Part shown: positions 6,017 through 54,125 of the stretch, one piece after another
Layout of the letters: the number at the start of each line of letters is the position of its first letter
Position numbering within the stretch: position 1 is the stretch's first letter
Source of the DNA: Verrucomicrobiia bacterium
Lineage (GTDB): Bacteria > Verrucomicrobiota > Verrucomicrobiia > JABWAM01
Length of the DNA: 64,000 nt
Assembly: GCA_020849895.1 (NCBI GenBank)
Contig: JADZFN010000012.1
Location: 7,258 to 71,257, forward strand
Direction: 5' to 3'
Notes under the pieces: generated by a model
Told to the model about the DNA's origin: nothing
Seen by the model: only the letters and a program-made list of their open reading frames with translations
The model's database searches: none
Made by a program: the position numbers and the translations under genes

Positions 6017-6113
6017 CGAATCCGGTGGTTGGTGCCGGAGGCGTGAGGCCACGACTGAGCGTAAGCACAGGCGAGGTTGCTGCTGCAACGAAATCCCGCG
6101 CGCGGATGTTGGA

Positions 6114-6140
6114 CCCGTCGTAGGGACACGACGGGCTACC
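6114..6140. repeat. single REP unit CCCGTCGTAGGGACACGACGGGCTACC
   Basis: Hairpin CCCGTCG/CGACGGG with a GGGCTACC tail. Variant of the REP half found in the two REPINs. Confidence 0.6.
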
Positions 6141-6166
6141 AAGGGGAATGTGGGGGAATGCTCTGC

Positions 6167-6222
6167 GGGTAGCCCGTGCCGTCCCGGCACGGGACCCGCC
6201 GTAGGGACACGGCGGGCTACCG
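6167..6222. repeat. REPIN GGGTAGCCCGTGCCGTCCCGGCACGGGACCCGCCGTAGGGACACGGCGGGCTACCG
   Basis: About 95 % identical to 5557..5610. Its terminal GGGCTACC supplies the TAG stop (6217-6219, minus strand) of the beta-propeller gene 6217..8259. Confidence 0.75.
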
Positions 6223-8259: not shown

Positions 8260-8337
8260 CGAGGGAGTCGCGGGACAGTGGCGGCGAAGAAGACCCCGCA
8301 GTCAACGGCCTTGCGCCGTTGTTGGGATGCCATCGGT

Positions 8338-9003
8338 TTAAAACTCGAAGTAGAAATCCTCCTGGACCGTGTCTTTCAGATCGATTTTAGCCACTCGTCC
8401 GTCGGCGAAGGCGGCGTTGAATTTGGAATTGTGACAGGCGGACTCGTTGTAGTTGTCGATCCAGGCCGGCGGGGGGGTCCAACTTGGAATGAAATTATCG
8501 GGGCGAAAGGGCCCGCCGGACGCCCGGGAATCCATGAAGAGAACGAGACGCTCGGGCACCGCCTTCATGCTGGCCTTGCCATCGGACTCGTACACATACA
8601 GGACCCGGTTCAGTGCAATCTGCGTGTAGTGGTAGATGTCAGGGCTGACCGCATAGTTCTTGCTGGAGGGGCACCGCAAGATGGGAGTCAAAGTGCTCGG
8701 CTTGTTGTTTTGAGGGAAGCTCACGGGACCGATATAGGTGGTCAGGTTGCTTGCCCAAAAGTAGGTGTTCGGAGCGTGTTGCTCGTTGTCATTGGCATAG
8801 AGGCGAAGGGCCAAATTCAGTTGCCGCTGATTGTTCATGCAGACGATGGAGTGGGCCTGCTCCCGTGCTGACCTGAGCGCGGGCAGGAGCAGCGCCGCCA
8901 AAATTGCGATGATGGCGATGACGACCAGCAACTCGATGAGCGTGAAGCTCCTGCTGTCCGGCGGTTTCTTAATACACCTTTCCTGAAGGCGGGGAGAATT
9001 CAT
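8338..9003 (-). CDS. prepilin-type N-terminal cleavage/methylation domain protein with C-terminal H-X9-DG motif (DUF1559-like pseudopilin)
   Basis: Start at the ATG giving [43 protein letters not shown]. The track ORF start at 9159 is upstream read-through. C-terminal [12 protein letters not shown] matches H-X9-DG. Lies 78 nt upstream of the propeller gene. Confidence 0.8.
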
Positions 9004-9402
9004 CCGATTTGCCGGGAATCGAGGCCGCGGCTGGCCCCCTGCACACGGTCGAAAGGCCCATACCTTGGGCTCCCGCGAAACGCACGCCAACGGTCGGATC
9101 CTGAGGTCATGAGCCGTGGTCACAAGGGAGGTGGGGAGAAGGATGGCTTTTGAGATCATGAATCCATTGCGATTCTCCCAGCATGTCAGTCAGTCGTCAG
9201 CACTCGAACATTGATCATTGTATTGGCGATGGTGGAAGGATTCAGTATTTCGACATGTCCGTCCGAAAAACACAATTGATTGTCGAGGAATATGCGTGAT
9301 GGGGGTAGAGAGCGAGACGGCCCGTTCGATCTCGCGATCGTGCTCCCCGCGAACGACCCCGACATCGTCCCGCTCGTGCGGTCCTCGGAATGACACGGTC
9401 CG

Positions 9403-11964
9403 CTACGATTCCACTGCCTTCCAGGGCTTCTCGATCAACGGCGACACCCTTCCCTTCACCACAGTCGCGCCTTGCTCATCGCGGAGGAACGAGCCGTTGA
9501 CGACCGCCGCGCAGCGGCGATTCCCGTCCGCTCCGAAGCGCTCGACCGCGAGCCACCCGTCCGTCCGCCCGCCCACCGCAGGGCGCGCGTCCCAGCCACC
9601 CCAGCGGATGTGGAGAACATCCCGTGCGCCCTCGCGGAAGACCACCTCCACACAGGCGCCTCTGTCGTCCGTCCCCACCACCCGCACGGCGGGCGTCAGC
9701 GGCTCTCTCGCCGAGGGAACGAGCGCCCATACCTGCCGCATCGGCAGCGTCCCTTCCCAGTGGTGGATGGCGCAGAAGGCGGGGAAGCAGTTGAAATCCT
9801 GCGCCACCCAACCTTGCACGGGGTCCATCTGGCCGCTCACGGCCCGCAGCGACCAGCCTTCTTGGAGGGCGGGCGCGATCTCGAAGTTGGACAGCGCGGC
9901 GCGCGCGGTCGCCGCGCGGAGACCTTTCACGACGACGGGCATCGGCGCGAAGTGCCACAGCGCCTCCGCGGAGTGCTTCCCCTCCCCCTCGAGCTCGTCG
10001 ACCACGAGCCAGTAGTCGGGCTTCAGGAACAGGACCGCGCGGCGGTGCAGGGGCTCTCCCGTCACGCCGGGGTAGCCCCCGGCGTAGACGCCGGCACCCA
10101 CGTCGAGAGTCCCTCCGCTCGCCCAAAAGATCTCGCTGGAGACGTCGCGCTTCCTCGACTCTCGCGTCTCGGAGACGGCCCTCTGCTGGCCTTTTCCGTC
10201 CACGAGGAGCGTGTTGTGGGACGCCGTGGAGCGGTAGTACCGGAAGAACTCGTCCTCGCCGTAACCCGCGATGCCGGGGTCCACGAGGAAGGGCGAGCCG
10301 AAGGCATAGGTCTCGACCCCGAGGGCATCCTCGTGCTGGTGGCCCGCGCCGAACGGCCCGACGTCGAAGAGCGACCACCGGTCCTGCGCGTTCACGCCCG
10401 AGCGCATGACCAGGAGACCTGCGTTCCGAAAACCGTGCGACTCGCCCGACGGAGGTCGCCCCTCGGCGCCGCCGGTGGCGAGCCAGAGCATCCCCGCGTC
10501 CTTCCAGAGCCGCGCCCCCTCTCGAAGGAAGAGATCATGGGACCGCAGGAATCCGCCGGAATCGTTGTGAGCGGGGCAGGTGCCGTCCGGCCGCACGAGT
10601 CCCGCGATCGCGCTGTACATGGCGCGGAGCCGCGCGCCATAAACGCGCGGCATGGGGAAACCGTTGAGCCGCGCCACTTCGAAGGGCTGGACGAAGGCGT
10701 TCGCCGAGCTGATGTGGTAGCCGGGCGAAAGCTCGTTGTGGATGCCATCGGGGTAAACCGTCTCGGCCGCCAGCGCCGCGAGGCGGCCCAGGCCCTCGTC
10801 GCGCCACGAGGCGGACCGGCGGTGCTCTGGGAACGAAATCCCGATAAGCGAAAGCGCCTGCGACTCGATCACCGTCCAGTTGGTGCCCGAAATCGAACCG
10901 TGCCGAAGGAGAAACTCCGCGTGCTCGTGCATGGACTTGAGCATGTCGAACCAGGTGCGGTCCCGCAGCGCCGGTTCCCCGAGGAGACCGAAGAAGACCT
11001 GCAACCACGTCCGCTTGAAGCGGCACCCCGCCGTGAGGGTACTCCAGGCGCGACTCCCCTTGCCATCGTGCCCGACCGGCACCGGCGAGGCGGCGATCCA
11101 CGACGAGAGCACCTCGTCGATCTTGGCGGCGTACTTCCGTTTCCTCGCCGCGTGCCACGCGAGGAGCAGGTCCACCACGAAGTAGTGGCGGTGCAGGCCG
11201 TCCGGGTCCCCGACCTCGCCCGTCGCCAGCTTCCAGTCGAACGTCGGACCGAGGTCCTGTCCCCCGACCACGTTGCGGCAGGCGAGGTCCGCCACCGCCA
11301 GCGAGGTCGGCCACGCCGGGGGCGCAGCGAACGGGAGGCTCGGCTTCTTTCGCCGCGCGAGGTACGCGCGCAAGCCGCGGATCGCCCCCTTAAAGTCCCC
11401 CCGCTCCACCGAGAGCCGAGCCGCCTTGAGGCCGGGGCGGCCCCAGTCCCACGCCCGCGCGAAACCGGTGTCGGTCAGACGCGTCCCCGCAGGCACGCGG
11501 CGCTTCTGCAGGCGCACCGACGCGATCCGCGTCGGGCCGCCGTAGTAACCCCGGACTTGAACGCGCGTCACCCTTCCCCAGATCGAGCCCGGGACGAGGC
11601 CGAAGTTCTCGATCGGGTAGAGCACGTCGCGCCAGCCGTGCCAGCGCTCGCGCGTCATCGCGCCCGCACCGGTGATGCACCGGAGCCTCGGCTTTCCCTC
11701 ACGCTCCACGGTCACCTGGAGCTCGCACCCTTCCCCCTCGCGGAAACCGACGCGCAAAACGACCTGGTCGAAGTCTCCCCAGTCTCCCGCGCAGGGGAGC
11801 TCGACCTCCTGCTTCGACGCGTCGTATAGGGCGCAGGGAACGCCCTCGGGGGAACCTCTCCCGCCATCGGCGAGCCCCGGTGCCGCGGCGAGTTCCCCCG
11901 CGCCGAGCAACACCCGCTCGGCGAGGAGCTCGTCGGTCAGAGTTTCGGGGATCGTGGAGGCCAT
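9403..11964 (-). CDS. heparinase II/III-like family protein (putative polysaccharide lyase)
   Basis: Hepar_II_III core GHQHEDALGVETYAFGSPFLVDPG plus the NELSPGYH and AHNDSGGF blocks. Paralog of 1375..4005. ATG at 11964 (MASTIPE...), 1 nt after the stop of the upstream gene. The antisense 785-aa ORF is shadow. Confidence 0.7.
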   Translation of the reverse strand: MASTIPETLTDELLAERVLLGAGELAAAPGLADGGRGSPEGVPCALYDASKQEVELPCAGDWGDFDQVVLRVGFREGEGCELQVTVEREGKPRLRCITGAGAMTRERWHGWRDVLYPIENFGLVPGSIWGRVTRVQVRGYYGGPTRIASVRLQKRRVPAGTRLTDTGFARAWDWGRPGLKAARLSVERGDFKGAIRGLRAYLARRKKPSLPFAAPPAWPTSLAVADLACRNVVGGQDLGPTFDWKLATGEVGDPDGLHRHYFVVDLLLAWHAARKRKYAAKIDEVLSSWIAASPVPVGHDGKGSRAWSTLTAGCRFKRTWLQVFFGLLGEPALRDRTWFDMLKSMHEHAEFLLRHGSISGTNWTVIESQALSLIGISFPEHRRSASWRDEGLGRLAALAAETVYPDGIHNELSPGYHISSANAFVQPFEVARLNGFPMPRVYGARLRAMYSAIAGLVRPDGTCPAHNDSGGFLRSHDLFLREGARLWKDAGMLWLATGGAEGRPPSGESHGFRNAGLLVMRSGVNAQDRWSLFDVGPFGAGHQHEDALGVETYAFGSPFLVDPGIAGYGEDEFFRYYRSTASHNTLLVDGKGQQRAVSETRESRKRDVSSEIFWASGGTLDVGAGVYAGGYPGVTGEPLHRRAVLFLKPDYWLVVDELEGEGKHSAEALWHFAPMPVVVKGLRAATARAALSNFEIAPALQEGWSLRAVSGQMDPVQGWVAQDFNCFPAFCAIHHWEGTLPMRQVWALVPSAREPLTPAVRVVGTDDRGACVEVVFREGARDVLHIRWGGWDARPAVGGRTDGWLAVERFGADGNRRCAAVVNGSFLRDEQGATVVKGRVSPLIEKPWKAVES

Positions 11965-42887: not shown

Positions 42888-43601
42888 TTACGTCGCCCCG
42901 CGCTGATGGAAGAGGAGGCGTCCGCAATTGGTGCAGGCGACGAGCAGGTCTTCGCGCCGGGCGTCGTGGAGAGTCTGTGTGGTGAGCTTCAGATGGCACC
43001 CCGAGCAGATCCCGTGGACGATTCCCACCACCGCCTGTCCGTGGCGATGCGCGAAGATCCGTTCGTAGCGCGAGAGCGCGTCTTCCGGAATCCCTTCGGT
43101 CAGCGCCTTGCGATCTTCGCCCAGCTTTTCGATTTCCCCACGCATCGCGCCTTCCCGAACTTCCAGATCCTTTTTCTGGAGGGCGGTCCGCGCGGCGGTT
43201 TCCTTCTGCCGCGCTTCCGCGGCCTTCGCTTCACGCTGAAGGTTTTCGACCTGCTCCATGAATTCGAGTTCGCGGTCCTCGATTCTGCGAATGTCCTGCT
43301 CCGCCGCGGCGATCTCGTGCTGCAGGGCGTGAAACTGATCGTTGTTTTTGATTTCGAGAAGCTGGGTCTTGTATTTTTGGATCTGGGCCTGTTTCGAGGA
43401 GACCTCGATCTCCAGCTTTTTGCGCTCGGCCTCCGCGTGGCGCATGGCGGCCTTGGCGTCTTCAGCGCCTTTCGCCGCGGCATCTTCCTTTCTCTCGAGC
43501 TCTGCGCGCTCTTTCGGCGCGTACTCCAGCGCCGTTTTCAGATCGAGGAGACGCTTGTCGCGATCCTGAAGAACCAGCAGTTTCTCGAGCGCGGGGTTCA
43601 T
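42888..43601 (-). CDS. coiled-coil zinc-ribbon protein (DUF164/COG1579-like C4 zinc ribbon)
   Basis: ATG at 43601 (MNPALEKLLVLQDRDKRLLDL). Long coiled coil. C-terminal CSGCHLKL...CTNCGRLL. 4-nt overlap with ribE. Confidence 0.65.
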   Translation of the reverse strand: MNPALEKLLVLQDRDKRLLDLKTALEYAPKERAELERKEDAAAKGAEDAKAAMRHAEAERKKLEIEVSSKQAQIQKYKTQLLEIKNNDQFHALQHEIAAAEQDIRRIEDRELEFMEQVENLQREAKAAEARQKETAARTALQKKDLEVREGAMRGEIEKLGEDRKALTEGIPEDALSRYERIFAHRHGQAVVGIVHGICSGCHLKLTTQTLHDARREDLLVACTNCGRLLFHQRGAT

Positions 43602-44200
43602 GTCCTCCGCACCTTCTCTCCCAGGGCTTTCCACGCATATTTGGCGAGCATGTCGGCTTCGAGATTCACAAAATCCCCGACGCATTTCCATCCTAAAGTC
43701 GTGATCTCGAGCGTGTGCGGGATCAGCCAGATCCCGAACCGCGCGGAGGAGACGGAGCTGACCGTGAGACTGACCCCATCGAGGGCGACGCATCCCTTCA
43801 TCACGATCCAGCGCATGAATCCGCGCGGCGGCGCGATCTCGATGTAGAGGTCCGCGCCCTTCGTGCGACGCGCAACGAGACGCCCGATTCCGTCAATGTG
43901 GCCCGTCACAAAGTGTCCGCCGAGAGTGTCGCCAAGCTTCAGCGACGTCTCGAGATTGATCCTTTCGGGAGGCTTCGCGCGATGGAATACGGTGCGCTTC
44001 CAGGTTTCCCGGAGGACGTCGAACTCCAGAAGCCCGCCGCGGTTTTCCACCACGGTGAGACAACAGCCGTTGACGGCTACGGACGATCCCGTCTTCGCCT
44101 CGCGTGCCAGGCCGAGATGGCGGATGCGCACGCGGATGCTTTTCCGGCCGGGGCGAATGCTTTCGAGAAGACCTTGACCGGCGACGATTCCGCTGAACAT
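43598..44200 (-). CDS. ribE: riboflavin synthase alpha chain
   Basis: MFSGIVAGQG...GSSVAVNGCCLTV...GGHFVTGHIDGIG...LIPHTLEITTLG, the duplicated lumazine-binding repeats. Confidence 0.85.
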   Translation of the reverse strand: MFSGIVAGQGLLESIRPGRKSIRVRIRHLGLAREAKTGSSVAVNGCCLTVVENRGGLLEFDVLRETWKRTVFHRAKPPERINLETSLKLGDTLGGHFVTGHIDGIGRLVARRTKGADLYIEIAPPRGFMRWIVMKGCVALDGVSLTVSSVSSARFGIWLIPHTLEITTLGWKCVGDFVNLEADMLAKYAWKALGEKVRRT

Positions 44201-44342: not shown

Positions 44343-46769
44343 ATGACGTTCCGCCTTACCCGCTTTCCGCTCTCCGTTTCTTGCGTCTTGACCGTCGCCG
44401 CGTTTCTGGGGCTCGTCCCATCGCTGGCGCCCGCGGCGCCGGCGCCATCCGCGGCGGCGCCGGTCACCGTCAAGGTCTTCAGCCTGCCTTCGAAACAGGC
44501 GGGGAACCCCGACGGCATCGCGAACTATCGAGTGTTGGAACGCTTTCACGAACTTCACCCCCATATCCGCCTGACTTCCTCCACGGCCCTCCAGATCGAG
44601 GGACGCGGGAGCGACACCGCCCCCCTCATGTCCATCGCGGGCGGCTCCTCACCCGACATCATTTACGTCAATTTTCGCATCTCGGACACCTACATCAGCC
44701 AGGGTTTCCTGCAGCCTCTCGACGAATATCTCGCAAAGATGAGTCCCGAGGAGCGCGCAGAACGGCTTCCCAAAACCGTGCTCCCCGTCGTCTATCGTCA
44801 TGGCCCCGGAGGCAAACACTACTGGGCCATGCCGCAGCGCGTCCTGGCCACCGTTCTCATCTATCGTCGGGACCTCTTCGCCGCCGCCGGACTCGATCCG
44901 AACCGAGCGCCGCGCGACTGGAACGAGCTGCGGGAGTTCGCGCGAAAGGTCGCCGACCCGGCCAAGGGCATCTACGGCCTCGCGTTTCCCGTAAGCCCCC
45001 ACGCCTCCGCCGCCATCAACTCCTACCTCTGCAGCGCGGGCGCCCATGCGGTCACCCAGCTTCCGGACGGCGAATGGCGCGCCACGTTCGACTCGGATGA
45101 GGCGGTCACCGCCTACTCTTTCGTGGACGAACTCCAGAAGGAGAAGGTCGTCCGCGACGGCAAAGAAGGCTTCCTCGCCTACCGCGCCGTGGACGCCAGC
45201 AAGAAATGGGCCGACGGACGGATCGCGATGACCTTCATCTATCTGGGCGGCGGCCGGCTCGGCGATCTCAACCCCGAGCTGATCGGGGTGGCGCCGGTCC
45301 CCAAAGGCCCGACCGGTCGCTCGAGTTCCGAGGTGAACTGCATGATGCTCGGCATCTTCGCGGGGCAGAAGGACCAACGGGTGCGCGACGCCGCGTGGGA
45401 GTATATCCGCTTCCTCGACAGTCGGGAGGCGCGCCGCATCTTCACGCAGACCATGGTCGAGCAGGGCGGCGCGCGCATGGTCCATCCCAAATGGCTCCGC
45501 GAGTTCGGCTATCCGCAACTCGCCCTCCTCTCCCCGCCCGGCCTAGCGGAGGCTTACGAGCAGGCCCTCGTCAACGGCACGCCGGAACCCTACGGCCGAA
45601 ACTGCCAATCCATCTACTACATGATGACGAGGCCGCTGGAGCAGATTTATTTCACCGATTTCACTGGCATGAACGCGGAACAACGTCTCGCCAAGATCAA
45701 GGATTTCCTCTCCGCCGCCGTCCGCGAAGCCAACGAAAAGCTGATCGGCCACGTCCCCGAGTCCGTCCGCCGCACGCGCAACGCCGTCGCGTGGGGAGTC
45801 GCCGTCTTGGTCGCCGTGGGGTTCGTCGCCCTTCTCGCAAAGGTCTTCCGTTGGATCAGCGTCGGCCAGGCGCCTCCGGACGAGAAGTCCTCGGCCTACA
45901 AGACGTGGTTCGCCCTCGGCCTGCTTGCCCCCGCCTTGGGCCTCATCCTTCTCTGGCATTACGTGCCGCTCGCGCGCGGCACACTCATCGCCTTCCAAGA
46001 CTACCGCGTGATGGGCGGTGTTCCCTGGGTCGGGATCAGCAACTTCGCGGACGTGCTCTTCGATACGCGCTTCTGGCTCTCCCTCTGGCACGCCGCCTAC
46101 TTCTGCGCCCTGTGGATGCTCCTCGGTTTTCTCCCTCCGATGTTTCTCGCCATCTTGCTCCAGGAAATCCCGAAGGGAAAAATCCTTTATCGCGTCCTTT
46201 TCTATCTCCCCGCCGTCGTTTCGGGGGTGGTGATCCTGTTCATGTGGCGCGCCATCTACGATCCGATGCCCGACGGCATCCTCAACCGCATCCTCGGCGT
46301 CTTCGGCGTCCCGCCCCAGCAATGGCTCCAGGACCCTTCCATCGCCATGCTCTGCGTCGTCTTTCCGCTTGCGTGGGCGCACCTCGGCCCCGGTTGCATC
46401 ATCTACCTCGCCGCCCTCAAAGGCATCCCCGACGAGCTTTATGAGGCCGCCGACATTGACGGCGCCGGCTTCTCCACCAAGGTGCGCTTCATCGTCATCC
46501 CCTACATGAAGCCGCTCCTCGTCATCAACGGCGTCGGCGCCCTCATCCATGGCTTCAACTCCGGCAGCGCCGTCCTCGCCATGACCGGCGGCGGGCCCAA
46601 CATGGCGACCCACGTCGTCGGTTACGAAATCTTCGAACGCAGCTTTCTCTTCCTGCGCTTCGGCCACGGCACCGCGATGGCCTGGATCGTCGGCCTCCTC
46701 CTCCTCTCCTTCACCGCCGTCCAGCTCCGCATCCTCAATAAGGTTGAATTCCGTACCGCCAACCGCTGA
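44343..46769 (+). CDS. ABC sugar transporter: fused periplasmic solute-binding domain + MalF-type permease
   Basis: Signal peptide MTFRLTRFPLSVSCVLTVAAFLGLVPSLAPAA, then an SBP family-1 domain (about 450 aa), then 6 TMs with the EAA loop EAADIDGAGFSTKVRFIVIPYMKP. Confidence 0.7.
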   Translation: MTFRLTRFPLSVSCVLTVAAFLGLVPSLAPAAPAPSAAAPVTVKVFSLPSKQAGNPDGIANYRVLERFHELHPHIRLTSSTALQIEGRGSDTAPLMSIAGGSSPDIIYVNFRISDTYISQGFLQPLDEYLAKMSPEERAERLPKTVLPVVYRHGPGGKHYWAMPQRVLATVLIYRRDLFAAAGLDPNRAPRDWNELREFARKVADPAKGIYGLAFPVSPHASAAINSYLCSAGAHAVTQLPDGEWRATFDSDEAVTAYSFVDELQKEKVVRDGKEGFLAYRAVDASKKWADGRIAMTFIYLGGGRLGDLNPELIGVAPVPKGPTGRSSSEVNCMMLGIFAGQKDQRVRDAAWEYIRFLDSREARRIFTQTMVEQGGARMVHPKWLREFGYPQLALLSPPGLAEAYEQALVNGTPEPYGRNCQSIYYMMTRPLEQIYFTDFTGMNAEQRLAKIKDFLSAAVREANEKLIGHVPESVRRTRNAVAWGVAVLVAVGFVALLAKVFRWISVGQAPPDEKSSAYKTWFALGLLAPALGLILLWHYVPLARGTLIAFQDYRVMGGVPWVGISNFADVLFDTRFWLSLWHAAYFCALWMLLGFLPPMFLAILLQEIPKGKILYRVLFYLPAVVSGVVILFMWRAIYDPMPDGILNRILGVFGVPPQQWLQDPSIAMLCVVFPLAWAHLGPGCIIYLAALKGIPDELYEAADIDGAGFSTKVRFIVIPYMKPLLVINGVGALIHGFNSGSAVLAMTGGGPNMATHVVGYEIFERSFLFLRFGHGTAMAWIVGLLLLSFTAVQLRILNKVEFRTANR

Positions 46770-46790
46770 CGCGCCCCGCCCCTCCGCCTC

Positions 46791-48632
46791 ATGCCCATCC
46801 TGAACTCCATTCAACGACGCTCCCGCGGCGGACGCCTCCTTTTCGGAGTCGTCTACGCCCTGCTGACCCTCGGCGCCGCATGGATGGTGTATCCCTTCCT
46901 CCTCCTGCTCAGCGGCGCCCTCAAAAGCGAAACCGATATCCGCCACTTCGACGTCTTCCCGAAGTATCTCACCGACGATCTCATGCTTTTCCGGAAGTTC
47001 GAGGACCAACGCTACGGCGGCAGCCTCGACCTCTTCACCAGCACCACCGGCGTGCCGCTCTACTCCTTCGAACAAACGCCCAAGCCTCCTCCCTCCGCAC
47101 CAGCCGTCCTCGCCGATTGGCGCGAGTTTCTTCGCGGTTCGGACGCATGGCCTGAGCCCTTTCTCCGCCTCGGCCACGTCTTGGGCTATCGCACCCTCGG
47201 TGAAGTCACGCTCGAATACCAACATCGCCTCGCGAAAGCGTTTCCGGATCTCCAGAAGGAGGAGTTTGCGGTCCGACTCGTGAGCGAAGCGTGGCCTTCC
47301 CGCTCCTATCAGCCCGTGCATGGCCTGTTCGCCCCCGTCTACCAAAAACTCCGCCGCGACCTGCCGCGCCGCTATTTCTATCCGACTTCGCTCCAAGGCA
47401 ACTTCGAGACCTCTTATCTCCGGGCGCGTTATGGCACTGGAGAAGATGGAGTCGAGAAGCTCAACGCTCGCTGGGGCACGCGCTACGCAAGCCTTCAGGA
47501 CGCCATCCTGACGCCCGAGCCCCCCCTCCAGCCGGGGATGCGCGAAGACTGGTGGATCTACGTCCGCGACAGCCTTTCGTCCCGCTTCATCCGCTGCGCG
47601 CCCTCGCTGCTGCCGGAGTACCGCGCCTTTCTCCGGGATAAGTATCGGGATCTCGCCGCCTTCGGCGACGCCTACGGACGTCCGTTCCGTTCGTGGAACG
47701 ACGCCGCCTTCCCTGCGCCGGACGCGCGCGCGCTCGCCTTCAGCGATTTCGAAGTCTTTCTCCAGACCCGCAAAGGTCCCGAGGGGGTTTCTCTCGACGG
47801 GCCGGAGTTTCGCTGGCGCGCCTTTCTCCGAGAAAAATACGGAGACGATCTCGCCGCGTTCCAACGAGCCCACGGCGGCGTCTCGACCTTCGAAGGCGTC
47901 AGGATGCCCGTTTTTGCCGACGACTGGCAGATCATGCAGGAGCACAAAGGCGCGATCCTCCGGGACTTCCTGACCCGGAACTTCCGCATCGTCTGGGACC
48001 AGCTCTCCGTGCGCGGGCGCGCCTTCCAGAACACGATCATCTTCTGCGCCCTCGCCATCCTCACCGCCCTCATCGTGAACCCGCTGGCCGCCTACGCCCT
48101 CTCCCGCTTCCAACCGCGCTGGGGCTACAAGGCCCTTTTCTTCCTCATGGCGACCATGGCCTTTCCCGCGGAAGTCACCCAGATTCCAAACTTCCTCATG
48201 CTCCGCGAGCTCGGCCTCCTCAACACCTTTGCTGCGCTGATCCTCCCCGGCGCCGCCAGCGGCTACTCCATCTTCCTCTTGAAAGGCTTTTTCGACAGTC
48301 TCCCCCGCGATCTCTACGAATCGGCCAATCTGGACGGCGCAAGCGAACTCCGCATCTTCTTCACCATCACCCTGCCGCTCTCCAAACCGATCCTGGCGGT
48401 GATCGCCCTCGGCGCATTCACTCACGCCTACGGCGCGTTCATGTTCGCCCTGCTCGTCTGTCAGAAGGAATCCATGTGGACCCTCATGGTTTACATCTAT
48501 CAGCTCCAGATGGGGTTCGGTCCCCCGGTCGTCTTCGCCGCCCTCATCATGGCCGCGGTCCCGACCCTGCTCGTCTTCGTCTTCTGCCAGAACATCATCA
48601 TGCGCGGCATCGTGGTCCCCGTCGAAAAATGA
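46791..48632 (+). CDS. ABC sugar transporter permease (MalG-type) with about 370-aa periplasmic insertion after TM1
   Basis: TM1 at residues 17-40, a long hydrophilic insert, then TMs with the EAA loop ESANLDGASELRIFFTITLP. The stop overlaps the next start (ATGA). Confidence 0.7.
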   Translation: MPILNSIQRRSRGGRLLFGVVYALLTLGAAWMVYPFLLLLSGALKSETDIRHFDVFPKYLTDDLMLFRKFEDQRYGGSLDLFTSTTGVPLYSFEQTPKPPPSAPAVLADWREFLRGSDAWPEPFLRLGHVLGYRTLGEVTLEYQHRLAKAFPDLQKEEFAVRLVSEAWPSRSYQPVHGLFAPVYQKLRRDLPRRYFYPTSLQGNFETSYLRARYGTGEDGVEKLNARWGTRYASLQDAILTPEPPLQPGMREDWWIYVRDSLSSRFIRCAPSLLPEYRAFLRDKYRDLAAFGDAYGRPFRSWNDAAFPAPDARALAFSDFEVFLQTRKGPEGVSLDGPEFRWRAFLREKYGDDLAAFQRAHGGVSTFEGVRMPVFADDWQIMQEHKGAILRDFLTRNFRIVWDQLSVRGRAFQNTIIFCALAILTALIVNPLAAYALSRFQPRWGYKALFFLMATMAFPAEVTQIPNFLMLRELGLLNTFAALILPGAASGYSIFLLKGFFDSLPRDLYESANLDGASELRIFFTITLPLSKPILAVIALGAFTHAYGAFMFALLVCQKESMWTLMVYIYQLQMGFGPPVVFAALIMAAVPTLLVFVFCQNIIMRGIVVPVEK

Positions 48633-49879
48633 GAAGAGCCTCGCCCTTCCCCGCCCCTTCTCTCGAACTCCCTCTGAACGAAGAGCGCGCCGCCTGCCCC
48701 CGCTGCGGCGGTCTCCTCGTCTTTCCCGCCGGCCGCGAGCGCCTGGCCTGCGCCGGCTGCCGCGCCGACTGGTTGCGACCGGTCGCCTCGGCGCGCGCGC
48801 TCGTGTTCGAAACCGCCGGACGTCGTCTCGCGTTCGGACGCCGCTGGATCGGCGTCGCGCATCGGCCGCGCTACCCGTTCCACCACGCTCTCCACGCGGA
48901 ACCCGAGGTCCGCAAGCTCGCCGCGGAATTCGGCGTTCCCCGCCGGCTCCGTGGGAAAACGCAATGGGAACGCCAACGCGATCTCCTCCGGGTCCTGCGG
49001 ATCGAACTGTTTCGCCATCGCCCGCCGGCGCCCGTCCTGCGACGCCTCGCCCTTTGGACGATCGCGCGGACCAACCGCCACTGGTACTGCACGCACCTCG
49101 CCTATTTCTACTCGGCCTTTGCCGCCTCCCTCGGCTGGACGGCCCGCATTCTCAACATCGGCCGGGACCATCTGGAAAAAACCGACGGCCACATGATCGC
49201 GGAAATCTGGAACGACGATTGGCAGAAATGGGTGATGGTGGATCCGCTCTTCGCCGCCTGGTTCTCGCGCCGCGGACGCCCTTCCGAACCGCTCTCCTTC
49301 TTCGAGGTCCGCCAGGACTGGCTCCGCGGCGGAGGCCGTCGCATGATCCTCCATCATCGGGTACGCAGCGCGAGCCAAGACCTCATCGGCCCCGAGCGCA
49401 CGCTCCCCGCGCTTCGCGACGACACGCGAAACCGCAGCCTGCATCCCTCCCACTACTTCTGGGCGATCGCCTATCTCAGCAACCGCTTTCTCACCGAACC
49501 TTATGAAGACGGACGGTTTCTCGCCCTGTTCTGGCGCGACCGCTGGAACACGGGCCGCGCCTGGTACAACCGAGACAAGCCCGTCGGCTACTATCGCGCG
49601 CGACACGTCGTGGAAACCTCGACTCCCCTCGATTTTCATCCTCCGCTCAACAACACAGCGGTCTGGCTGTTGCGCGACGCGGTCCGTCCGCGCGTCTTCC
49701 TGCGCGCCTACTGCCCCAACTTCGCCCGCTTCGAAATGAAGCGGGACGGCGCTTGGCGGCGCATCCCCGCCGAATTTCCGCTTCCGCCCGCGCATGGCCG
49801 CTTCGCCTGGGAGTTCCGCGCCGTGAACCGCTTCGGCGTCGCCGGAAAACCCGCCGCCCTAACGGGGATCGCGCGCTGA
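48629..49879 (+). CDS. zinc-ribbon + transglutaminase-like (Cys-His-Asp) domain protein
   Basis: CPRCGG..x15..CAGC ribbon. Transglutaminase-like core [20 protein letters not shown] ... DGHMIAEIW ... WVMVDP. ATG at 48629 overlaps the permease stop. Confidence 0.55.
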
Positions 49880-49922
49880 CTCCTCATTGTCAAATCCGCC
49901 ATCCTCGGCGAGACTGGAGGGA

Positions 49923-50711
49923 ATGTCCGCCCCCCTGCTTATCGCCGGCCGCGAGTTCCGGTCCCGCCTGCTCCTCGGCACCGGCAAGTTCTCCTCGAAC
50001 GAAAGAATGAAAGAGGCCATCGAGGCTTCCGGCGCGGAGCTCGTTACGGTCGCCCTCCGCCGCGCCGATCTCACCGGTCGACACGATCCGTTCGCCAACA
50101 TCCTCGAATACATTGACGCGGAAAAGTGTCTCGTGCTCCCGAACACCTCGGGCGCGATGAACGCCGAGGAAGCCGTCCGCCTCTGCCGCCTCGCCGCCGC
50201 CGCCGGCCTCCCTCGCTGGGTGAAACTCGAAATTCATCCCGATCCGCGCTATCTCCTTCCCGATCCGGTCGAGACCCTCGCCGCCGCTGAAATCCTCGTG
50301 AAGGAAGGCTTCACCGTCCTCCCCTACATCAACGCCGACCCCGTGCTCGCCCTGCGCCTGCAGGATGCCGGCTGCGCCACGGTGATGCCGCTCGGCGCCC
50401 CCATCGGCTCGAACCGCGGCATCGAGACGCGCGCCCAAATCGAAATCATCCTCGAACAGGCGCGCGTCCCCGTCGTCGTGGACGCCGGGCTCGGCGCGCC
50501 CTCTCAGGCCGCCGAGGCGATGGAAATGGGCGCCGACGCCGTGCTCGTGAACACCGCCATCGCCGTCGCGAAGGATCCGATCCGCATGGCGCGCGCCTTC
50601 CGCGCCGCCGTCGAGGCGGGTCGCGACGCCTTTGAGGTCGGTCTCGCCGCCGAACGTCGCACCGCCGATCCCACCAGTCCCCTCACCGCTTTCCTCCACG
50701 CCGCCAAATGA
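49923..50711 (+). CDS. thiG: thiazole synthase
   Basis: ThiG TIM-barrel blocks ([57 protein letters not shown]). ATG at 49923. Confidence 0.85.
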
Positions 50712-50726: not shown

Positions 50727-53700
50727 TCAAGGGACCAGCTTCTGAAACAGCGCCATTCCCCGGATGGGGTTGAAGCGGGCGTCGCCGCGGACGGTGTTGA
50801 TGAGATTGGTGTCCAGCGAGAACGCTTTCGCGAGATTGCTGCAGGCGGCCTCGCCGCGAAGCGAAGACGCATGGAAAACGGCGAGGGTGTACCACGCGAA
50901 GGCGTTCTTCGGCTCGCGTTTCACGAGGCGCTGGAGGAGGGTTTCGATGCGGTCGAGGCGGTTGGGCGGCACGTAGAACTGCTGGATCACCTCAAACCAG
51001 AGGGTGGCGGGGGTCGTTGGACGATCCAGAAACTCGTCCACGACGCGATCGGCAGCCGCAGATTTTCCGCGTTCCCTGAGCACGTTGGCGTATTGAAGGA
51101 CAAACTGAGGATCGTTCTTGCAAGTGGAGTAAAGAGAGGCCAGCTCGGCCTCCTTGCGCTCCAGTGTGCGCAGCATCGTGACCTTCTGAAGGACGTCCTG
51201 CGGAGCGGAATTGAAGGGGTCGAGCTTGAGCCATTCCTCGCAGTTGACGAAAGCCTCGTCGTAGCGCCCCTGACTGACGAGACACTCGGTGAGGCGGGAG
51301 CGCGCCTCGGCGCTGGCGGGATAAAAATCGAGCGCCTGGTGGAGGCTCTTCTCCGTCTCATAATGCATGCCGCGGAAAAGGTACAGGCCGCCGAGCGAAC
51401 TGCGCAGCTTCGAAAAGGATTTTCGCGCCACGTCGTCGCGGAGAAACTTCGGGTCGGCCATCAACCGGGCGACGAGGCCGGACCAGAGCGCCATGTCGCG
51501 CCGCACCGCCTCGGGAGGGATCGCCTTGATGGGCTCCTTGTTGATTTTCATAATGAGCCCGGCGGGCTCGAGGTAGGGGTACATCCACGGAATGGGATAG
51601 CTTTCTTCGACGTAGAAGGTGTGTCTCGCCTTGTTCATCTCGAAGATCCATTTGGCGATCGCGCCGTTAATGGCGAACACGCCCTCGACCCCCTGCACGC
51701 TGGCGCGTACGACTTTACCCATCGCATCGCGTTGGAAGGTGACGCCCTTCTGCGAGTTGCTCTGCGCCTCCTGCACCACCTGGCTGAAGATGAGATTGAA
51801 CTCGTTGTCGTTCGGCAGGCGGAGCGGCTCTTGGGGATAGAGGCGGTCGCGCCCCAGCAGGCGGTGATACCAGCGGTCCATCTTCTCGCGGCCCGTGTCA
51901 TAGTGGCCGCGGATGTAGTTCATGTAGGTCTGGTCCGCGAGGGCGTTCTGCGTGATGATGTAGAGATCGCGGCGGTCGAAGTCCGGGTCCTCGCGCCAGC
52001 GTTTCGGCTGGAAGCTCTCGACGAAAATCATGTAGGTCGGCACGAAACGTCCGGGATCGGTGCCGCCATAGACCACGGCGTCCCGATCGAGGTCCTTGAG
52101 CATGTCGTGTCCGTAGAGCCAACCGAAGTCGTGCCCGCGCATCTCGCTGTCGGCCCAGTTCATGCAGAGGGGCACGAGGGGGATCGCCGCGACGAACGCG
52201 AGCCCGCCGCGCGACCATCCGGGATGCTGGACGAGGCGGATCAGGATGCCGAGAAACAGCGCCGCCCCCGCAAGCCAGAGCGTTTCCGTCGTCCACGCGC
52301 GTTCAAGGTGGAACCCCAGAAAGGCGGCGAAGACGAACCCGAGGGCGACGGCGAATGCCGGGGTCGCGCGCTTCGCGCCCTGCACCCAGTGGAGGAGGAA
52401 AATCGTTCCGAGGCCGATCCAGAGCGAATACACTCCGTGCGAAAGGGAATAGAAGACGCGGATGATGAAGGAAGTCTGGAGATCGAATTTCGCATTGAGC
52501 AGATAGACGAGCATGAAGCCCATGAAGACGAAACAGAGGACCGTGAACGCAAGATAAGCCTTCTCTCGCCGGGGAAAATCGCGGATGAACACGAGCGGGA
52601 GCACCCCGAGCAGACAGAGCGGGAGAGAGAAATTCTCCTCCAGATCGTTGAAGAACTGGTTGTACTGGCCGAGGAGCACCTTCAGCGGACGGGACGTCTG
52701 GATCCGTTCATACTGGCCGCGAGTGATGTGGTGGCGGAAACCTTCGACCGTTCGCGTGTAGCCCCAATTCATCGGGGGGTTTGTCGCCGAGGAAAGGGGC
52801 ATATAGAGGTAGACACTGCTTCCCGCGGTAAACATGATGAAGCTCAAGAGGAACGGCGCGATCGCCTTGAGCGCGCCATGGCGCGTGAGAAGGTCGAAAA
52901 TGAGAATGCCGACCCACGCGGCGAAAAGCACGGCGGCGAGGAAAATCCAGAGCGGGCGATCGTCCATTGCCGAGAAGACGATCATGGCGAGCGCGGCGAG
53001 GAGCATCGAAAACGTGGCGCTGAAGAGGTTGCGGACGTTCCACGCGTGCGGCTCGCGGAGCATCAGCCAGAGGTAGTGCAGCAAGAATCCCGCAGAGAAA
53101 ACCCACAGGAGTCCCAGCGAGCTTTGCCACGCGAAGATCGCGCAGGAAAGCGACGCCAGGAACGCGCAGTCCCGGTAGAGCACGCGGTCGGCGTAGAACA
53201 TCGCGAAGATGAACGCCGGGGCGCTCACCAGCAACGTCTGGTGGTTCGTGATCCCCAGGCCGAAGACGAGCGCGATCAGGCAGGCCCAACGCCACTGGTG
53301 CGGAGCGTCGAACCACCGCAGGACGAGCAGACAGAGAAGCGTGAAAAAGAAATCGTTGAGCGGATAAACCTCCGTGACCGTCGCCTGCGCCCACGTGGTG
53401 TCAATGAAGGCATAGACGAGCCCCGCCACCAGTCCGGCGATGAGGATGAGGACCTCGCGGGAAATCCCGGGCAGCGTGAAGTCCTTCAGGCGTTCCAGGC
53501 TCCAGAGCCGCTCGGCCAGCTTGCAGGTGAGCAGCGTCATCAGGCCGCAGGCCAGCGCTCCGTAGAACGCGGCCATGAAGTTCCCTCGCCACGCGGCGTT
53601 CCCGTACGGGAGGATCCGCTCGAAGAGGTTCGCCGAAATCGTCCAGATGGGGTAGCCCGGCGGGTGCGGCACGCCCCAGTGGTACGCCGCAGTCAGGAAC

Positions 53701-53825
53701 TCGCCCGAATCCTCGAGCGTCACGTTCGGGGCGAGCGTGTAGACGTACACGCTCAGCGAGATCAGCGTCGTGATCCAGAACCCCAGCCATTCGGTCCTGG
53801 AGAAATAGCGCGGTCGGAGGCTCAT
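50727..53825 (-). CDS. DUF2723-like GT-C-fold membrane glycosyltransferase (PMT/TMEM260-like) with C-terminal TPR repeats
   Basis: ATG at 53825 (MSLRPRYF). N-terminal motif YVYTLAPNVTLEDSGEFLTAAYHWGVPHPPGYPIW. More than 10 TMs, then about 400 aa of soluble TPR-like C-terminus. Confidence 0.55.
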   Translation of the reverse strand: MSLRPRYFSRTEWLGFWITTLISLSVYVYTLAPNVTLEDSGEFLTAAYHWGVPHPPGYPIWTISANLFERILPYGNAAWRGNFMAAFYGALACGLMTLLTCKLAERLWSLERLKDFTLPGISREVLILIAGLVAGLVYAFIDTTWAQATVTEVYPLNDFFFTLLCLLVLRWFDAPHQWRWACLIALVFGLGITNHQTLLVSAPAFIFAMFYADRVLYRDCAFLASLSCAIFAWQSSLGLLWVFSAGFLLHYLWLMLREPHAWNVRNLFSATFSMLLAALAMIVFSAMDDRPLWIFLAAVLFAAWVGILIFDLLTRHGALKAIAPFLLSFIMFTAGSSVYLYMPLSSATNPPMNWGYTRTVEGFRHHITRGQYERIQTSRPLKVLLGQYNQFFNDLEENFSLPLCLLGVLPLVFIRDFPRREKAYLAFTVLCFVFMGFMLVYLLNAKFDLQTSFIIRVFYSLSHGVYSLWIGLGTIFLLHWVQGAKRATPAFAVALGFVFAAFLGFHLERAWTTETLWLAGAALFLGILIRLVQHPGWSRGGLAFVAAIPLVPLCMNWADSEMRGHDFGWLYGHDMLKDLDRDAVVYGGTDPGRFVPTYMIFVESFQPKRWREDPDFDRRDLYIITQNALADQTYMNYIRGHYDTGREKMDRWYHRLLGRDRLYPQEPLRLPNDNEFNLIFSQVVQEAQSNSQKGVTFQRDAMGKVVRASVQGVEGVFAINGAIAKWIFEMNKARHTFYVEESYPIPWMYPYLEPAGLIMKINKEPIKAIPPEAVRRDMALWSGLVARLMADPKFLRDDVARKSFSKLRSSLGGLYLFRGMHYETEKSLHQALDFYPASAEARSRLTECLVSQGRYDEAFVNCEEWLKLDPFNSAPQDVLQKVTMLRTLERKEAELASLYSTCKNDPQFVLQYANVLRERGKSAAADRVVDEFLDRPTTPATLWFEVIQQFYVPPNRLDRIETLLQRLVKREPKNAFAWYTLAVFHASSLRGEAACSNLAKAFSLDTNLINTVRGDARFNPIRGMALFQKLVP

Positions 53826-54125
53826 GCGGAAAAGGGAGACCCTACCAGAACCCGTTCCGTTGCGGCAAACACAACTCCCGACCCCTCGGAGCGCCTCATG
53901 CCGCCGATCGGCGCCTGCAGTTGCACCGATGGCTCGACCGATTGGCCGGTCCCCGCTTGAGAACGGCGAAAAAGGAGAGAACGGAGGGCCCACAGGGAAA
54001 CGGGCCTTCCCGTCTTGCGTCTCTCCTCCTTCGAGCTCCTTGCGACTCCCGACATCTTTGCTTCACTCCCAGTTGCGCCCTCGTCGCTTTGCGCTTGCGG
54101 CAAACCGCGCGCTGCTCTACCGCCC

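What the first reader, a model, noticed from the sequence alone, without database searches (positions are those of the whole stretch)
44343..49879. ATPase-less sugar ABC importer with fused binding-protein/permease, a permease carrying a 370-aa periplasmic insert, and a translationally coupled Zn-ribbon transglutaminase-like protein
The first gene encodes a signal peptide plus family-1 solute-binding domain fused in one chain to a MalF-type permease (EAA loop present). The second permease has about 370 hydrophilic residues between TM1 and TM2. Its stop overlaps (ATGA) a cytoplasmic-looking protein with a C-x2-C...C-x2-C ribbon and a Cys/His/Asp transglutaminase-like core. No nucleotide-binding protein is encoded nearby, so a shared MsiK-type ATPase is implied. 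The coupled transglutaminase-like protein has no obvious role in transport and may be a regulator or processing protease.
Basis: partly seen in the sequence, partly recalled or inferred. Interest (0 to 1): 0.5.

Follow-up and report, generated by a model that had tools for sequence, protein, structure and literature searches.

The report
Sugar importer with tethered binding domain
This is a real three-gene operon for a sugar-type ABC importer whose binding protein is fused to one membrane subunit and whose other subunit carries a 377-residue periplasmic helical-repeat loop; the transporter design is common but unstudied in Verrucomicrobia and allied phyla, whereas the overlapping transglutaminase-fold gene is a lineage-specific add-on most likely acting on the imported glycan.

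Summary
All the described features are present at the stated coordinates. P1 (44343-46769) is signal peptide, family-1 binding domain, one anchor helix, then a six-helix MalF/UgpA-type permease. P2 (46791-48632) is a MalG/UgpE-type permease with 377 residues between TM1 and TM2. P3 (48629-49879, ATGA overlap) has a CxxC...CxxC ribbon and an invariant Cys-His-Asp triad.

The fusion is not a frameshift. A fused gene sits directly upstream of the P2 gene in 71 of 72 relatives' loci that hold enough upstream DNA. The P2 family occurs in at least 476 species genomes.

The P2 insert is not an enzyme. It consists of three to five copies of a ~35-residue motif also seen inside GH42 glycosidases.

The 64-kb window encodes no ABC ATPase. 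In five relatives a MalK-type ATPase gene directly follows P2, so a distally encoded MalK/MsiK-type ATPase is a sound inference.

Verdict: a new variant of known kinds, of moderate interest.

The parts
44343..46769 (+). P1: fused substrate-binding domain and MalF/UgpA-type permease (808 aa)
   Evidence: SBP_bac_1 and BPD_transp_1 lie in one ORF. NCBIfam gives UgpA/MalF-like hits at 521-800. Full-length fused homologues are 76%, 61%, 42% and 32% identical.
44343..44429 (+). P1 signal peptide or N-terminal signal anchor (residues 1-29)
   Evidence: Hydrophobic segment at 10-28 preceded by Arg residues. All five aligned homologues have a hydrophobic N-terminus. Cleavage was not tested.
44430..45767 (+). 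P1 periplasmic family-1 (sugar-type) substrate-binding domain (residues ~30-475)
   Evidence: Pfam SBP_bac_1 matches 13-305 of 307 profile positions. The best solved relatives are Thermotoga MalE3 (6dtq, E 1e-17) and the trehalose/maltose-binding protein 1eu8.
45783..45839 (+). P1 extra anchor/linker transmembrane helix (residues 481-499), returning the chain to the cytoplasm before the canonical TM1
   Evidence: Hydropathy 2.55. The helix is conserved in position in the fused homologues. Topology is inferred from the N-in six-helix core of MalF/UgpA-type permeases.
45900..46766 (+). P1 six-helix permease core with EAA loop (residues 520-808)
   Evidence: AlgM1, MalF and SugA are the closest solved chains.
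46791..48632 (+). P2: MalG/UgpE-type permease (613 aa) with a giant TM1-TM2 periplasmic loop
   Evidence: Pfam and NCBIfam results. AlgM2 (E 5e-22), SugB and MalG are the closest solved chains. More than 3500 homologues were found, about 120 of them full length at 39% identity or more.
46905..48035 (+). P2 periplasmic insert (residues 39-415) built from tandem helical-motif repeats
   Evidence: Bounded by TM1 (16-38) and TM2 (416-434). Weak, multiple hits to positions ~144-194 of PF02449 (GH42) occur in the family. The family profile hits GH42-type structures only over this motif.
47403..47504 (+). Repeat motif copy (P2 residues 205-238)
   Evidence: Motif HMM hit, E 4e-12.
47610..47711 (+). 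Repeat motif copy (P2 residues 274-307)
   Evidence: Motif HMM hit, E 2e-12.
47802..47909 (+). Repeat motif copy (P2 residues 338-373)
   Evidence: Motif HMM hit, E 1e-12. Two more degenerate copies lie upstream, and relatives such as P0110 have five clear copies about 70 residues apart.
48036..48629 (+). P2 permease core TM2-TM6 with EAA loop and invariant C-terminal tail ...RGIVVPVEK
   Evidence: Alignment of 45 homologues.
48629..48632 (+). ATGA overlap of the P2 stop and the P3 start
   Evidence: Read directly from the sequence. The same 4-nt overlap is present in L006 and L007.
48629..49879 (+). P3: cytoplasmic Zn-ribbon plus transglutaminase-fold (Cys-His-Asp) protein with a C-terminal beta-sandwich (416 aa)
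48695..48760 (+). P3 Zn ribbon, C23-x2-C26...C41-x2-C44
   Evidence: Conserved in the seven members of the close clade (window protein included) whose N-terminus is present in the alignment, and in five distant ones. Also encoded in L005 upstream of the called start.
49088..49243 (+). P3 catalytic triad: codons C154 (49088-49090), H188 (49190-49192), D205 (49241-49243)
   Evidence: Invariant in 36 of 36 aligned family members. These residues align with the Cys/His/Asp of PNGase 2f4m.
49652..49876 (+). P3 C-terminal beta-sandwich (residues ~342-416)

Best explanation
Transporter. The operon encodes the membrane part of a CUT1 (MalFGK2-like, type I) carbohydrate ABC importer of an unusual but widespread design.
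- P1 is exported by its N-terminal signal. It keeps its sugar-binding domain tethered to the membrane through one extra helix that leads into a six-helix MalF/UgpA-type permease.
- P2 is the MalG/UgpE-type partner. Its first periplasmic loop has expanded into a ~377-residue domain of tandem helical motifs.
- I infer that this loop sits beside the tethered binding domain and serves as its docking or guiding platform. This would be analogous to the MalF P2 loop that embraces MalE.
- Each P1-P2 heterodimer therefore carries exactly one built-in receptor.
- Both subunits keep EAA loops. Energy therefore comes from a dimer of a MalK/MsiK-type ATPase encoded elsewhere in the genome.

P3. It is translated from an ATGA overlap with P2. 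It is a cytoplasmic Cys-His-Asp transglutaminase-fold enzyme. I infer that it acts on the imported glycan or glycoconjugate by cleaving or transferring an amide- or ester-linked group on a sugar. This could be PNGase-like or deacylase/acyl-transferase-like chemistry.

Shown versus inferred. Shown: domain architecture, topology pattern, conservation, absence of a local ATPase, the fold and triad of P3, and the gene neighbourhoods of P3 relatives. Inferred: the substrate, the role of the insert, the identity of the ATPase, and the chemistry of P3.
For: Architecture and family.

Fusion conserved: window-type three-gene loci L006, L007 and L012, and two-gene modules L010, L011 and the P0028 context. 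In 71 of 72 GTDB loci with enough upstream DNA, a fused gene lies directly upstream of P2. The junction helix aligns across homologues.

ATPase: none in the window. A homologous ~366-aa gene directly follows P2 in five loci, and the one scanned (L026) is ABC_tran + OB_MalK + TOBE_2. EAA loops and an invariant cytoplasmic tail are conserved.

Insert: three to five copies of one motif about 70 residues apart.

P3 context: relatives lie next to a GH42-like gene, heparinase II/III, GH67N+DUF4838 and LacI/PfkB/HAD genes. Relatives are also fused to DUF4838+GH67N, to an apiosidase/GH5-like domain and to a Pel9A beta-helix. DUF4838 enzymes are GlcNAc-cleaving GH163/GH185 (PMC10570127).

Coupling: the 4-nt overlap is kept in L006 and L007. 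The P2-core + P3 block is retained in L006 even though the upstream half there is a different paralogue.
Against: - P3 is absent from 79 of 80 species-level loci of the transporter family. In L005 an orthologue lies by thiG without any transporter. The functional link to transport may therefore be loose or accidental.
- No structure of P1 or P2 was predicted, so the contact between insert and binding domain is purely inferred.
- The operon lies among housekeeping genes with no glycosidase or sugar regulator nearby, so the substrate is unknown.
- The ATPase of this genome was not seen.
Confidence: 0.55

Rival explanations
1. P3 is functionally unrelated to the transporter. It belongs with thiG or the local backbone. 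The P1-P2 module was inserted upstream of it in one lineage, and the ATGA overlap is a by-product of compaction.
For: L005 (71% identical P3) has an N_methyl gene, P3 and ThiG with no transporter. The window also has thiG 43 nt downstream with no terminator. 79 of 80 transporter loci lack P3. The neighbours of the P1-P2 module are otherwise highly variable.
Against: The 4-nt overlap and gene order are kept at about 75% nucleotide identity in L006, L007 and L012. In L006 the P2-core + P3 block stayed together while the upstream part differs. P3 relatives elsewhere are consistently in carbohydrate-utilisation clusters, which fits a sugar importer.
Confidence: 0.25
2. P3 is a transglutaminase-like cysteine protease or a regulator. 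It would either process a protein (for example the tethered binding domain or its signal anchor) or bind the transporter's cytoplasmic face.
Against: P3 has no signal peptide or TM helix, so it cannot reach the periplasmic binding domain. The transporter family works without it in almost all genomes. Some family members are secreted, or are fused to glycoside hydrolases or lyases, which a transporter-specific regulator would not be.
Confidence: 0.12
3. The fusion or the insert is an annotation or sequencing artefact, for example a frameshift joining two genes.
For: High-GC DNA gives many long spurious ORFs.
Against: The same fused architecture appears in independent contigs from many phyla, with an aligned junction helix. 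Codon-position GC supports both frames. P2-length proteins of ~600-640 aa number in the hundreds.
Confidence: 0.02

Closest known systems
E. coli maltose transporter MalEFGK2 (type I ABC importer, CUT1 family)
   Same: Two different permease subunits of the MalF and MalG types with EAA loops. A family-1 sugar-binding receptor. A MalK-type ATPase with a C-terminal OB/TOBE domain, seen in relatives' loci. One subunit carries a large periplasmic loop.
   Different: Here the receptor is covalently fused to the MalF-type subunit through an extra helix. The large loop is on the MalG-type subunit, between TM1 and TM2. It has ~377 residues of helical repeats, whereas the MalF P2 loop lies between TM3 and TM4 (MalF P2 details are from my own knowledge). 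The ATPase is not in the operon.
Sphingomonas alginate importer AlgM1M2SS-AlgQ2 and mycobacterial LpqY-SugABC
   Same: These are the closest solved permease sequences: AlgM2 at E 5e-22, SugB at E 4e-18 and AlgM1 at E 1e-16. They are oligosaccharide importers of the same family.
   Different: They use separate soluble or lipoprotein receptors, have short periplasmic loops, and encode the ATPase in the operon.
GlnPQ and OpuA (ABC importers with substrate-binding domains fused to the permease)
   Same: The receptor is tethered to the translocator. As in GlnP, the domain order is signal sequence, binding domain(s), then permease (PMC8025302 abstract for tandem SBDs linked to the TMD; the order is from my own knowledge).
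   Different: Those are amino-acid and osmolyte families with homodimeric permeases, giving 2-4 receptors per complex. Here a sugar-type (cluster-1/CUT1) receptor is fused in a heterodimer, giving one receptor per complex, and the partner subunit carries a giant loop.
MsiK/MsmK-type shared ATPases of CUT1 systems
   Same: The operon lacks an ATPase gene although both permeases keep the coupling (EAA) loops. That MsiK/MsmK-type ATPases serve several ATPase-less sugar operons is from my own knowledge; multitask ATPases of type I importers are the subject of PMC7658222 (title and abstract seen only).
   Different: The ATPase of this organism was not identified. Sharing between several systems is inferred, not shown.
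Peptide:N-glycanase (PNGase/NGLY1) and the transglutaminase-like superfamily
   Different: The Zn ribbon here is a separate N-terminal module about 110 residues before the catalytic Cys. There are no PUB or Rad23-binding parts. The protein has an extra alpha/beta subdomain and a C-terminal beta-sandwich. The family has its own signature (E192, W194, K200-W201, P221, E226, D304, N400, G406). Activity is untested.
NanM-fused SSS/MFS sialic-acid transporters of Planctomycetes and Verrucomicrobia
   Same: The same phyla fuse a leader-peptide-bearing periplasmic accessory domain to the N-terminus of a transporter; for the NanZ (MFS) fusions the paper mentions an extra N-terminal element (text cut in my excerpt) (PMC8461474).
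   Different: Those are secondary transporters, and the fused domain is an enzyme (a mutarotase), not a receptor.

Membership tests
Type I ABC importer, carbohydrate uptake (CUT1 / MalFG-like) | Two permease subunits with the BPD_transp_1 fold and a cytoplasmic EAA coupling loop | tested here: met
   BPD_transp_1 in P1 (E 1e-8) and P2 (E 4e-15). EAA motifs were read in both translations. The closest solved chains are AlgM1/M2, SugA/B and MalF/G.
Type I ABC importer, carbohydrate uptake (CUT1 / MalFG-like) | Family-1 (cluster 1, sugar-type) extracytoplasmic substrate-binding protein | tested here: met
   SBP_bac_1 at E 3e-25. MalE3, trehalose/maltose-binding protein and other sugar-binding proteins are the best PDB hits. 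The domain is fused rather than free.
Type I ABC importer, carbohydrate uptake (CUT1 / MalFG-like) | MalK-type ATPase with a C-terminal regulatory (OB/TOBE) domain | tested here: inconclusive
   None in the 64-kb window. A homologous gene directly follows P2 in five related loci, and the one scanned (L026) has ABC_tran + OB_MalK + TOBE_2. The rest of this genome is not available.
Type I ABC importer, carbohydrate uptake (CUT1 / MalFG-like) | ATP-driven, receptor-dependent sugar uptake | not testable with these tools
   Needs biochemistry or genetics.
ABC importers with a receptor fused to the permease (GlnPQ/OpuA type) | Binding domain and permease in one polypeptide, conserved among relatives | tested here: met
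   Single ORF. The fusion is present in 71 of 72 informative loci. The junction aligns across homologues.
ABC importers with a receptor fused to the permease (GlnPQ/OpuA type) | Homology to the PAAT/QAT families (amino-acid or betaine receptors, homodimeric permease) | tested here: not met
   The receptor is SBP_bac_1 and the permeases are a MalF/MalG-type heterodimer. The fusion is therefore analogous and independent.
Transglutaminase-like superfamily (Pfam Transglut_core, clan of papain-like Cys-His-Asp enzymes) | Cys-His-Asp triad in the canonical order and motifs | tested here: met
   C154/H188/D205 are invariant in 36 of 36 sequences. They align to the PNGase and TGase triads.
Transglutaminase-like superfamily (Pfam Transglut_core, clan of papain-like Cys-His-Asp enzymes) | Transglutaminase core fold | tested here: met
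Transglutaminase-like superfamily (Pfam Transglut_core, clan of papain-like Cys-His-Asp enzymes) | Pfam gathering score reached | tested here: inconclusive
   P3 scores 21.7 bits against a cut-off of 23. Five of the ten relatives scanned pass with 23.5-32.3 bits (P0131, P0139, P0140, P0150, P0154, P0165 at or above 23).
Peptide:N-glycanase (PNGase) | Zinc-binding CxxC pairs packed against the catalytic core | tested here: inconclusive
   Two CxxC pairs exist, but as a separate N-terminal ribbon (residues 23-44) about 110 residues before C154. The position in PNGase is recalled from memory, not compared here.
Peptide:N-glycanase (PNGase) | Chitobiose-binding residues and deglycosylating activity | not tested
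   No coordinates or PNGase alignment were available for a residue-level comparison. Activity needs an assay.
Glycoside hydrolase family 42 (for the P2 insert) | Complete (beta/alpha)8 catalytic domain with its catalytic glutamates | tested here: not met
   Only a ~35-50-residue motif (profile positions ~144-194 of 376) matches, and it matches repeatedly. The window protein scores 13.5 bits against a cut-off of 21.

The most novel reading that the evidence does not exclude
The P1-P2 pair would represent an undescribed structural class of sugar ABC importer that is a main oligosaccharide uptake route in Verrucomicrobiota, Kiritimatiellia, Lentisphaerota, Planctomycetota and Armatimonadota. In this reading, the single tethered receptor and the helical-repeat loop of the partner subunit form one co-evolving periplasmic capture module, as hinted by their joint replacement in L006. 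In addition, the P3 family would be a new glycan-active Cys-His-Asp enzyme class, such as a bacterial PNGase-like glycoamidase or a sugar de-N-acylase/acyl-transferase, that partners with GH163/GH185-type and heparinase-type enzymes.
Probability: 0.2. Interest if true: 0.7.

Novelty: new variant of a known kind. Interest (0 to 1): 0.42.

Why it matters
Glycan uptake. PVC-group bacteria are major degraders of complex and sulfated glycans, including mucin, algal polysaccharides and glycosaminoglycans. How they take up the products is poorly understood. A conserved importer design with a built-in receptor and a giant periplasmic loop, present in hundreds of species, is a concrete and testable candidate for that step.

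ABC transporter mechanics. The design is a natural experiment: one tethered receptor per heterodimer, with a docking domain on the MalG-type rather than the MalF-type subunit.

The P3 family. It has 979 cluster representatives at E < 0.001 and an invariant triad, and it is tied by gene neighbourhood and by fusion to glycoside hydrolases and lyases. If it acts on sugar-linked amides or esters, it would add a new catalytic fold to the carbohydrate-active enzyme repertoire.

Tried and rejected
- A first AF2 run of P3 with only nine close homologues gave a useless model (pLDDT 56). It was replaced by a run with 36 diverse sequences (pLDDT 90).
- Foldseek against the PDB gave no significant hit. 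The afdb50 library was unavailable.
- A profile search of the word-indexed protein database with the diverse P3 alignment returned essentially only the known close clade, so it gave no domain-architecture census.
- One context look-up landed on a 1.7-kb contig.
- The idea that the P2 insert is a periplasmic GH42-like glycosidase was rejected. Only a short repeated motif matches.
- A frameshift origin for the fusion was rejected.
- A lipoprotein signal in P1 was considered. No proper lipobox precedes the hydrophobic core (read), so a type I signal or an uncleaved anchor is more likely.
- Five literature searches for a described sugar-type receptor-permease fusion or for this P3 family found nothing specific. 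The library lacks most subscription journals and TCDB, so absence is weak evidence.
- Promoter and terminator scans were at chance level.


Full report
**Observation.** The region 44343-49879 holds three co-directional genes with the codon-position GC pattern of real genes in this ~65% GC sequence. The organism is a Verrucomicrobiae MAG: P3 is 100% identical to NCBI 'hypothetical protein IT578_01845'.

**P1 (44343-46769, 808 aa).** One chain carries Pfam SBP_bac_1 (residues 63-363, E 3e-25) and BPD_transp_1 (615-797, E 1e-8). It also gives UgpA/MalF-like NCBIfam hits over 521-800. Hydropathy shows a signal-like N-terminal helix (10-28), one extra helix (481-499), and then six helices. This is the arrangement needed to keep an N-terminal domain in the periplasm ahead of an N-in six-helix permease. 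The topology is inferred, not measured.

**P2 (46791-48632, 613 aa).** It is a UgpE/MalG-type permease. TM1 is at 16-38 and TM2 at 416-434. Both P1 and P2 have EAA loops.

**P3 (48629-49879, 416 aa).** It starts at an ATG that overlaps the P2 stop as ATGA. It has no hydrophobic segment. It carries C23-x2-C26...C41-x2-C44 and a weak Transglut_core hit of 21.7 bits against a cut-off of 23.

**The fusion is real.** It fails.
- Contigs carrying P3 orthologues (L006, L007) and contigs carrying more distant P2 homologues (L010, L011, the P0028 context) all have a fused SBP_bac_1 + BPD_transp_1 gene of 803-925 aa directly upstream of a ~600-650-aa permease.
- In the best 80 loci, every locus with enough upstream DNA except one (71 of 72) has an ORF directly upstream of P2 that matches both the binding-domain half and the permease half of P1.
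- The junction helix aligns across homologues that are 32-76% identical.
- Carriers include Verrucomicrobiota, Kiritimatiellia, Lentisphaerae/Victivallales (including cultured Victivallis vadensis DSM 14823 and Lentisphaera marina), Planctomycetota, Armatimonadota, Cloacimonadota and Gemmatimonadaceae.
- Databases label these proteins simply as 'carbohydrate ABC transporter permease'.

**Family placement.** The closest solved chains to the P2 profile are AlgM2 of the alginate importer (E 5e-22), SugB of LpqY-SugABC (E 4e-18) and MalG (E 4e-16). For P1 the closest permease chains are AlgM1, MalF and SugA. The closest receptors are Thermotoga MalE3 and the Thermococcus trehalose/maltose-binding protein. 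This is a CUT1/MalFGK2-type type I importer.

**The insert.** Precomputed and fresh Pfam scans show short hits, often multiple, to positions ~144-194 of the GH42 model in many P2 homologues. The window protein scores only 13.5 bits. The family profile touches GH42-type structures only over that motif. A motif HMM built from the family has the consensus PgFfWRaFLRaKYGGDLAALNRAHGTNYASFDEV. It finds three copies in the window protein (205-238, 274-307, 338-363) and five copies about 70 residues apart in relatives such as P0110. Variants of ~765 aa have more matched stretches.

The insert is thus a tandem helical-motif domain, not a glycosidase. Its role is inferred. By analogy with the MalF P2 loop, which docks MalE (my own knowledge), it probably cradles or guides the tethered binding domain.

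**The ATPase.** A six-frame motif scan of the whole window finds no LSGGQ signature. The four Walker-A hits lack it; by position and local sequence they look like a PilT-like ATPase, ClpB (two sites) and shikimate kinase, but these ORFs were not scanned against any library.

Among the 80 related loci, 73 have no candidate within 10 kb. In five loci the gene directly after P2 is one homologous ~366-aa family. The example scanned, from L026, has ABC_tran + OB_MalK + TOBE_2. The P2 family keeps its EAA loop and an invariant cytoplasmic tail, RGIVVPVEK. A distally encoded MalK/MsiK-type ATPase is therefore a sound inference. ATPase-less CUT1 operons are ordinary.

**P3: fold.** Only nine close homologues exist in the word-indexed database. 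An exhaustive profile search found 979 cluster representatives at E < 0.001 and 287 at E < 1e-10, many of them ~360-430 aa and matching end to end.

With 36 diverse sequences, AF2 gave a confident model (pLDDT 90, pTM 0.90). The model has four parts:
- an N-terminal beta-rich Zn-ribbon module;
- a helical and beta-sheet transglutaminase core;
- an extra alpha/beta subdomain;
- a C-terminal beta-sandwich.

C154/H188/D205 are invariant in 36 of 36 sequences. A family signature is nearly invariant at 18-26% identity to the window protein: E192, W194, K200-W201, P221, E226, D304, N400 and G406. Some members carry the Zn ribbon and no signal peptide, like P3. Others have signal peptides instead.

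**P3: linkage to the transporter.** The three-gene arrangement with the 4-nt overlap occurs in the window, L006 and L007; L012 has the same three-gene order (overlap not checked). However:
- L012 is the only one of the 80 species-level transporter loci that has a P3 gene.
- L005 is a 71%-identical orthologue that is full length, including the ribbon once the start is corrected. It lies between an N_methyl gene and thiG with no transporter.

**P3: what its relatives sit next to.**
- A GH42-like gene (L001-L003).
- Heparinase II/III genes (L004 and L094).
- A GH67N + DUF4838 gene plus a sugar-type GntR/Peripla_BP regulator (L093).
- LacI, HAD, PfkB and CN_hydrolase genes (L009).

Distant relatives are fused to DUF4838 + GH67N, to an apiosidase/GH5/DUF6298-like domain and to a Pel9A-type beta-helix. 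DUF4838 enzymes are the GH163 endo-GlcNAcase acting on complex N-glycans and the GH185 6-sulfo-GlcNAcase (PMC10570127).

This consistent link to glycan breakdown, together with the PNGase-like fold, makes a cytoplasmic glycan or glycoconjugate-processing role the best reading. The chemistry would be cleavage or transfer at an amide or ester on a sugar. I put this at about 45%. 'No functional link' is about 25% and 'protease or regulator' about 12%.

**Surroundings.** The operon lies among housekeeping genes. Upstream are aconitase family, class-III aminotransferase, peptide deformylase, proC, an NAD-epimerase and a CT398-like Zn-ribbon protein. Downstream are thiG, a TMEM260-like glycosyltransferase with TPR repeats, and a methyltransferase. 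No CAZyme or sugar regulator is nearby, so the substrate cannot be named. Across the 80 loci the only recurrent neighbour is the ATPase. GFO/IDH/MocA oxidoreductases, a Zn-dehydrogenase and a PfkB kinase recur sporadically.

**Comparison and novelty.** Each element has precedent:
- tethered receptors: GlnPQ has tandem substrate-binding domains linked to the permease (PMC8025302) and OpuA has an intrinsic substrate-binding domain (PMC2861598);
- a large docking loop (MalF P2, PMC6906923);
- multitask ATPases of type I importers (PMC7658222);
- N-terminal periplasmic domains fused to transporters in the same phyla (PMC8461474).

The combination appears undescribed in the searchable literature. 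That combination is a sugar-type receptor fused to the MalF-type subunit, plus a ~377-residue helical-repeat loop on the MalG-type subunit, conserved across several phyla. The literature evidence is weak, since the library is incomplete and TCDB was not searchable.

P3 belongs to the transglutaminase-like superfamily but forms its own uncharacterised family. It cannot be filed as a PNGase.

**Verdict.** New variant of known kinds; interest 0.42.

Noticed in passing
L006:355-6312 compared with window 44343-49879: L006 is a mosaic. Nucleotide similarity to the window (75%) runs only from about P2 residue 398 (the start of the permease core) through P3. P1 (32% identical) and the P2 TM1 plus insert belong to a divergent paralogue. 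Either the binding domain and the insert were swapped together by recombination, which would hint that they co-evolve, or this megahit contig is an assembly chimera.
   Followed up: partly
L005:1176-2417: The called 351-aa P3 orthologue is truncated by the gene caller. The upstream in-frame sequence encodes the Zn ribbon ([23 protein letters not shown]...). The gene lies between an N_methyl-domain gene and thiG, with no transporter.
   Followed up: yes
L001-L005, L010, L094 (e.g. L094:558-3773): Genes with prepilin-type N_methyl and DUF1559/SBP_bac_10 domains recur next to P3-family genes and near P1-P2 loci. In L094 there are four in a row. They are very abundant in these phyla (from my own knowledge), so this may be chance.
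   Followed up: no
window 50727-53993 (-): A 1088-aa protein with a TMEM260-like protein O-mannosyltransferase domain (E 2e-41) and C-terminal TPR repeats lies just downstream of thiG.
   Followed up: no
window 42888-43793 (-): A CT398-like coiled-coil hairpin plus C4 zinc-ribbon protein (301 aa) lies upstream of the operon on the other strand. The overlapping 386-aa + strand ORF is probably spurious.
   Followed up: no
window 49880-49925: The likely thiG start is the ATG at 49923, only 43 nt after the P3 stop, with no terminator-like site. thiG may be co-transcribed with the operon. The P3-thiG adjacency is also seen in L005.
   Followed up: partly
P2 family alignment A3 (window 48606-48629): The cytoplasmic C-terminal tail RGIVVPVEK is almost invariant across phyla. 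The last ~115 residues of P2 are far more conserved than the rest, which suggests a specific contact with the ATPase dimer.
   Followed up: no
P0028 context (contig of 254 kb, genes at 5970-11860): Some family loci carry an additional free SBP_bac_1 gene (463 aa) immediately upstream of the fused gene. Some of these transporters may therefore use both a tethered and a soluble receptor.
   Followed up: no
P0101, P0108, P0117, P0121, P0128 (765-774 aa): Longer P2 variants show three to four separate GH42-motif stretches with stronger scores (up to 66 bits). The number of repeats in the insert therefore varies between lineages.
   Followed up: partly
window 46001-50000: GC skew is markedly more negative here (-0.19 to -0.20) than in the flanks (about -0.10 to 0.00). 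This is probably a codon or amino-acid composition effect of the C-rich coding strand.
   Followed up: no
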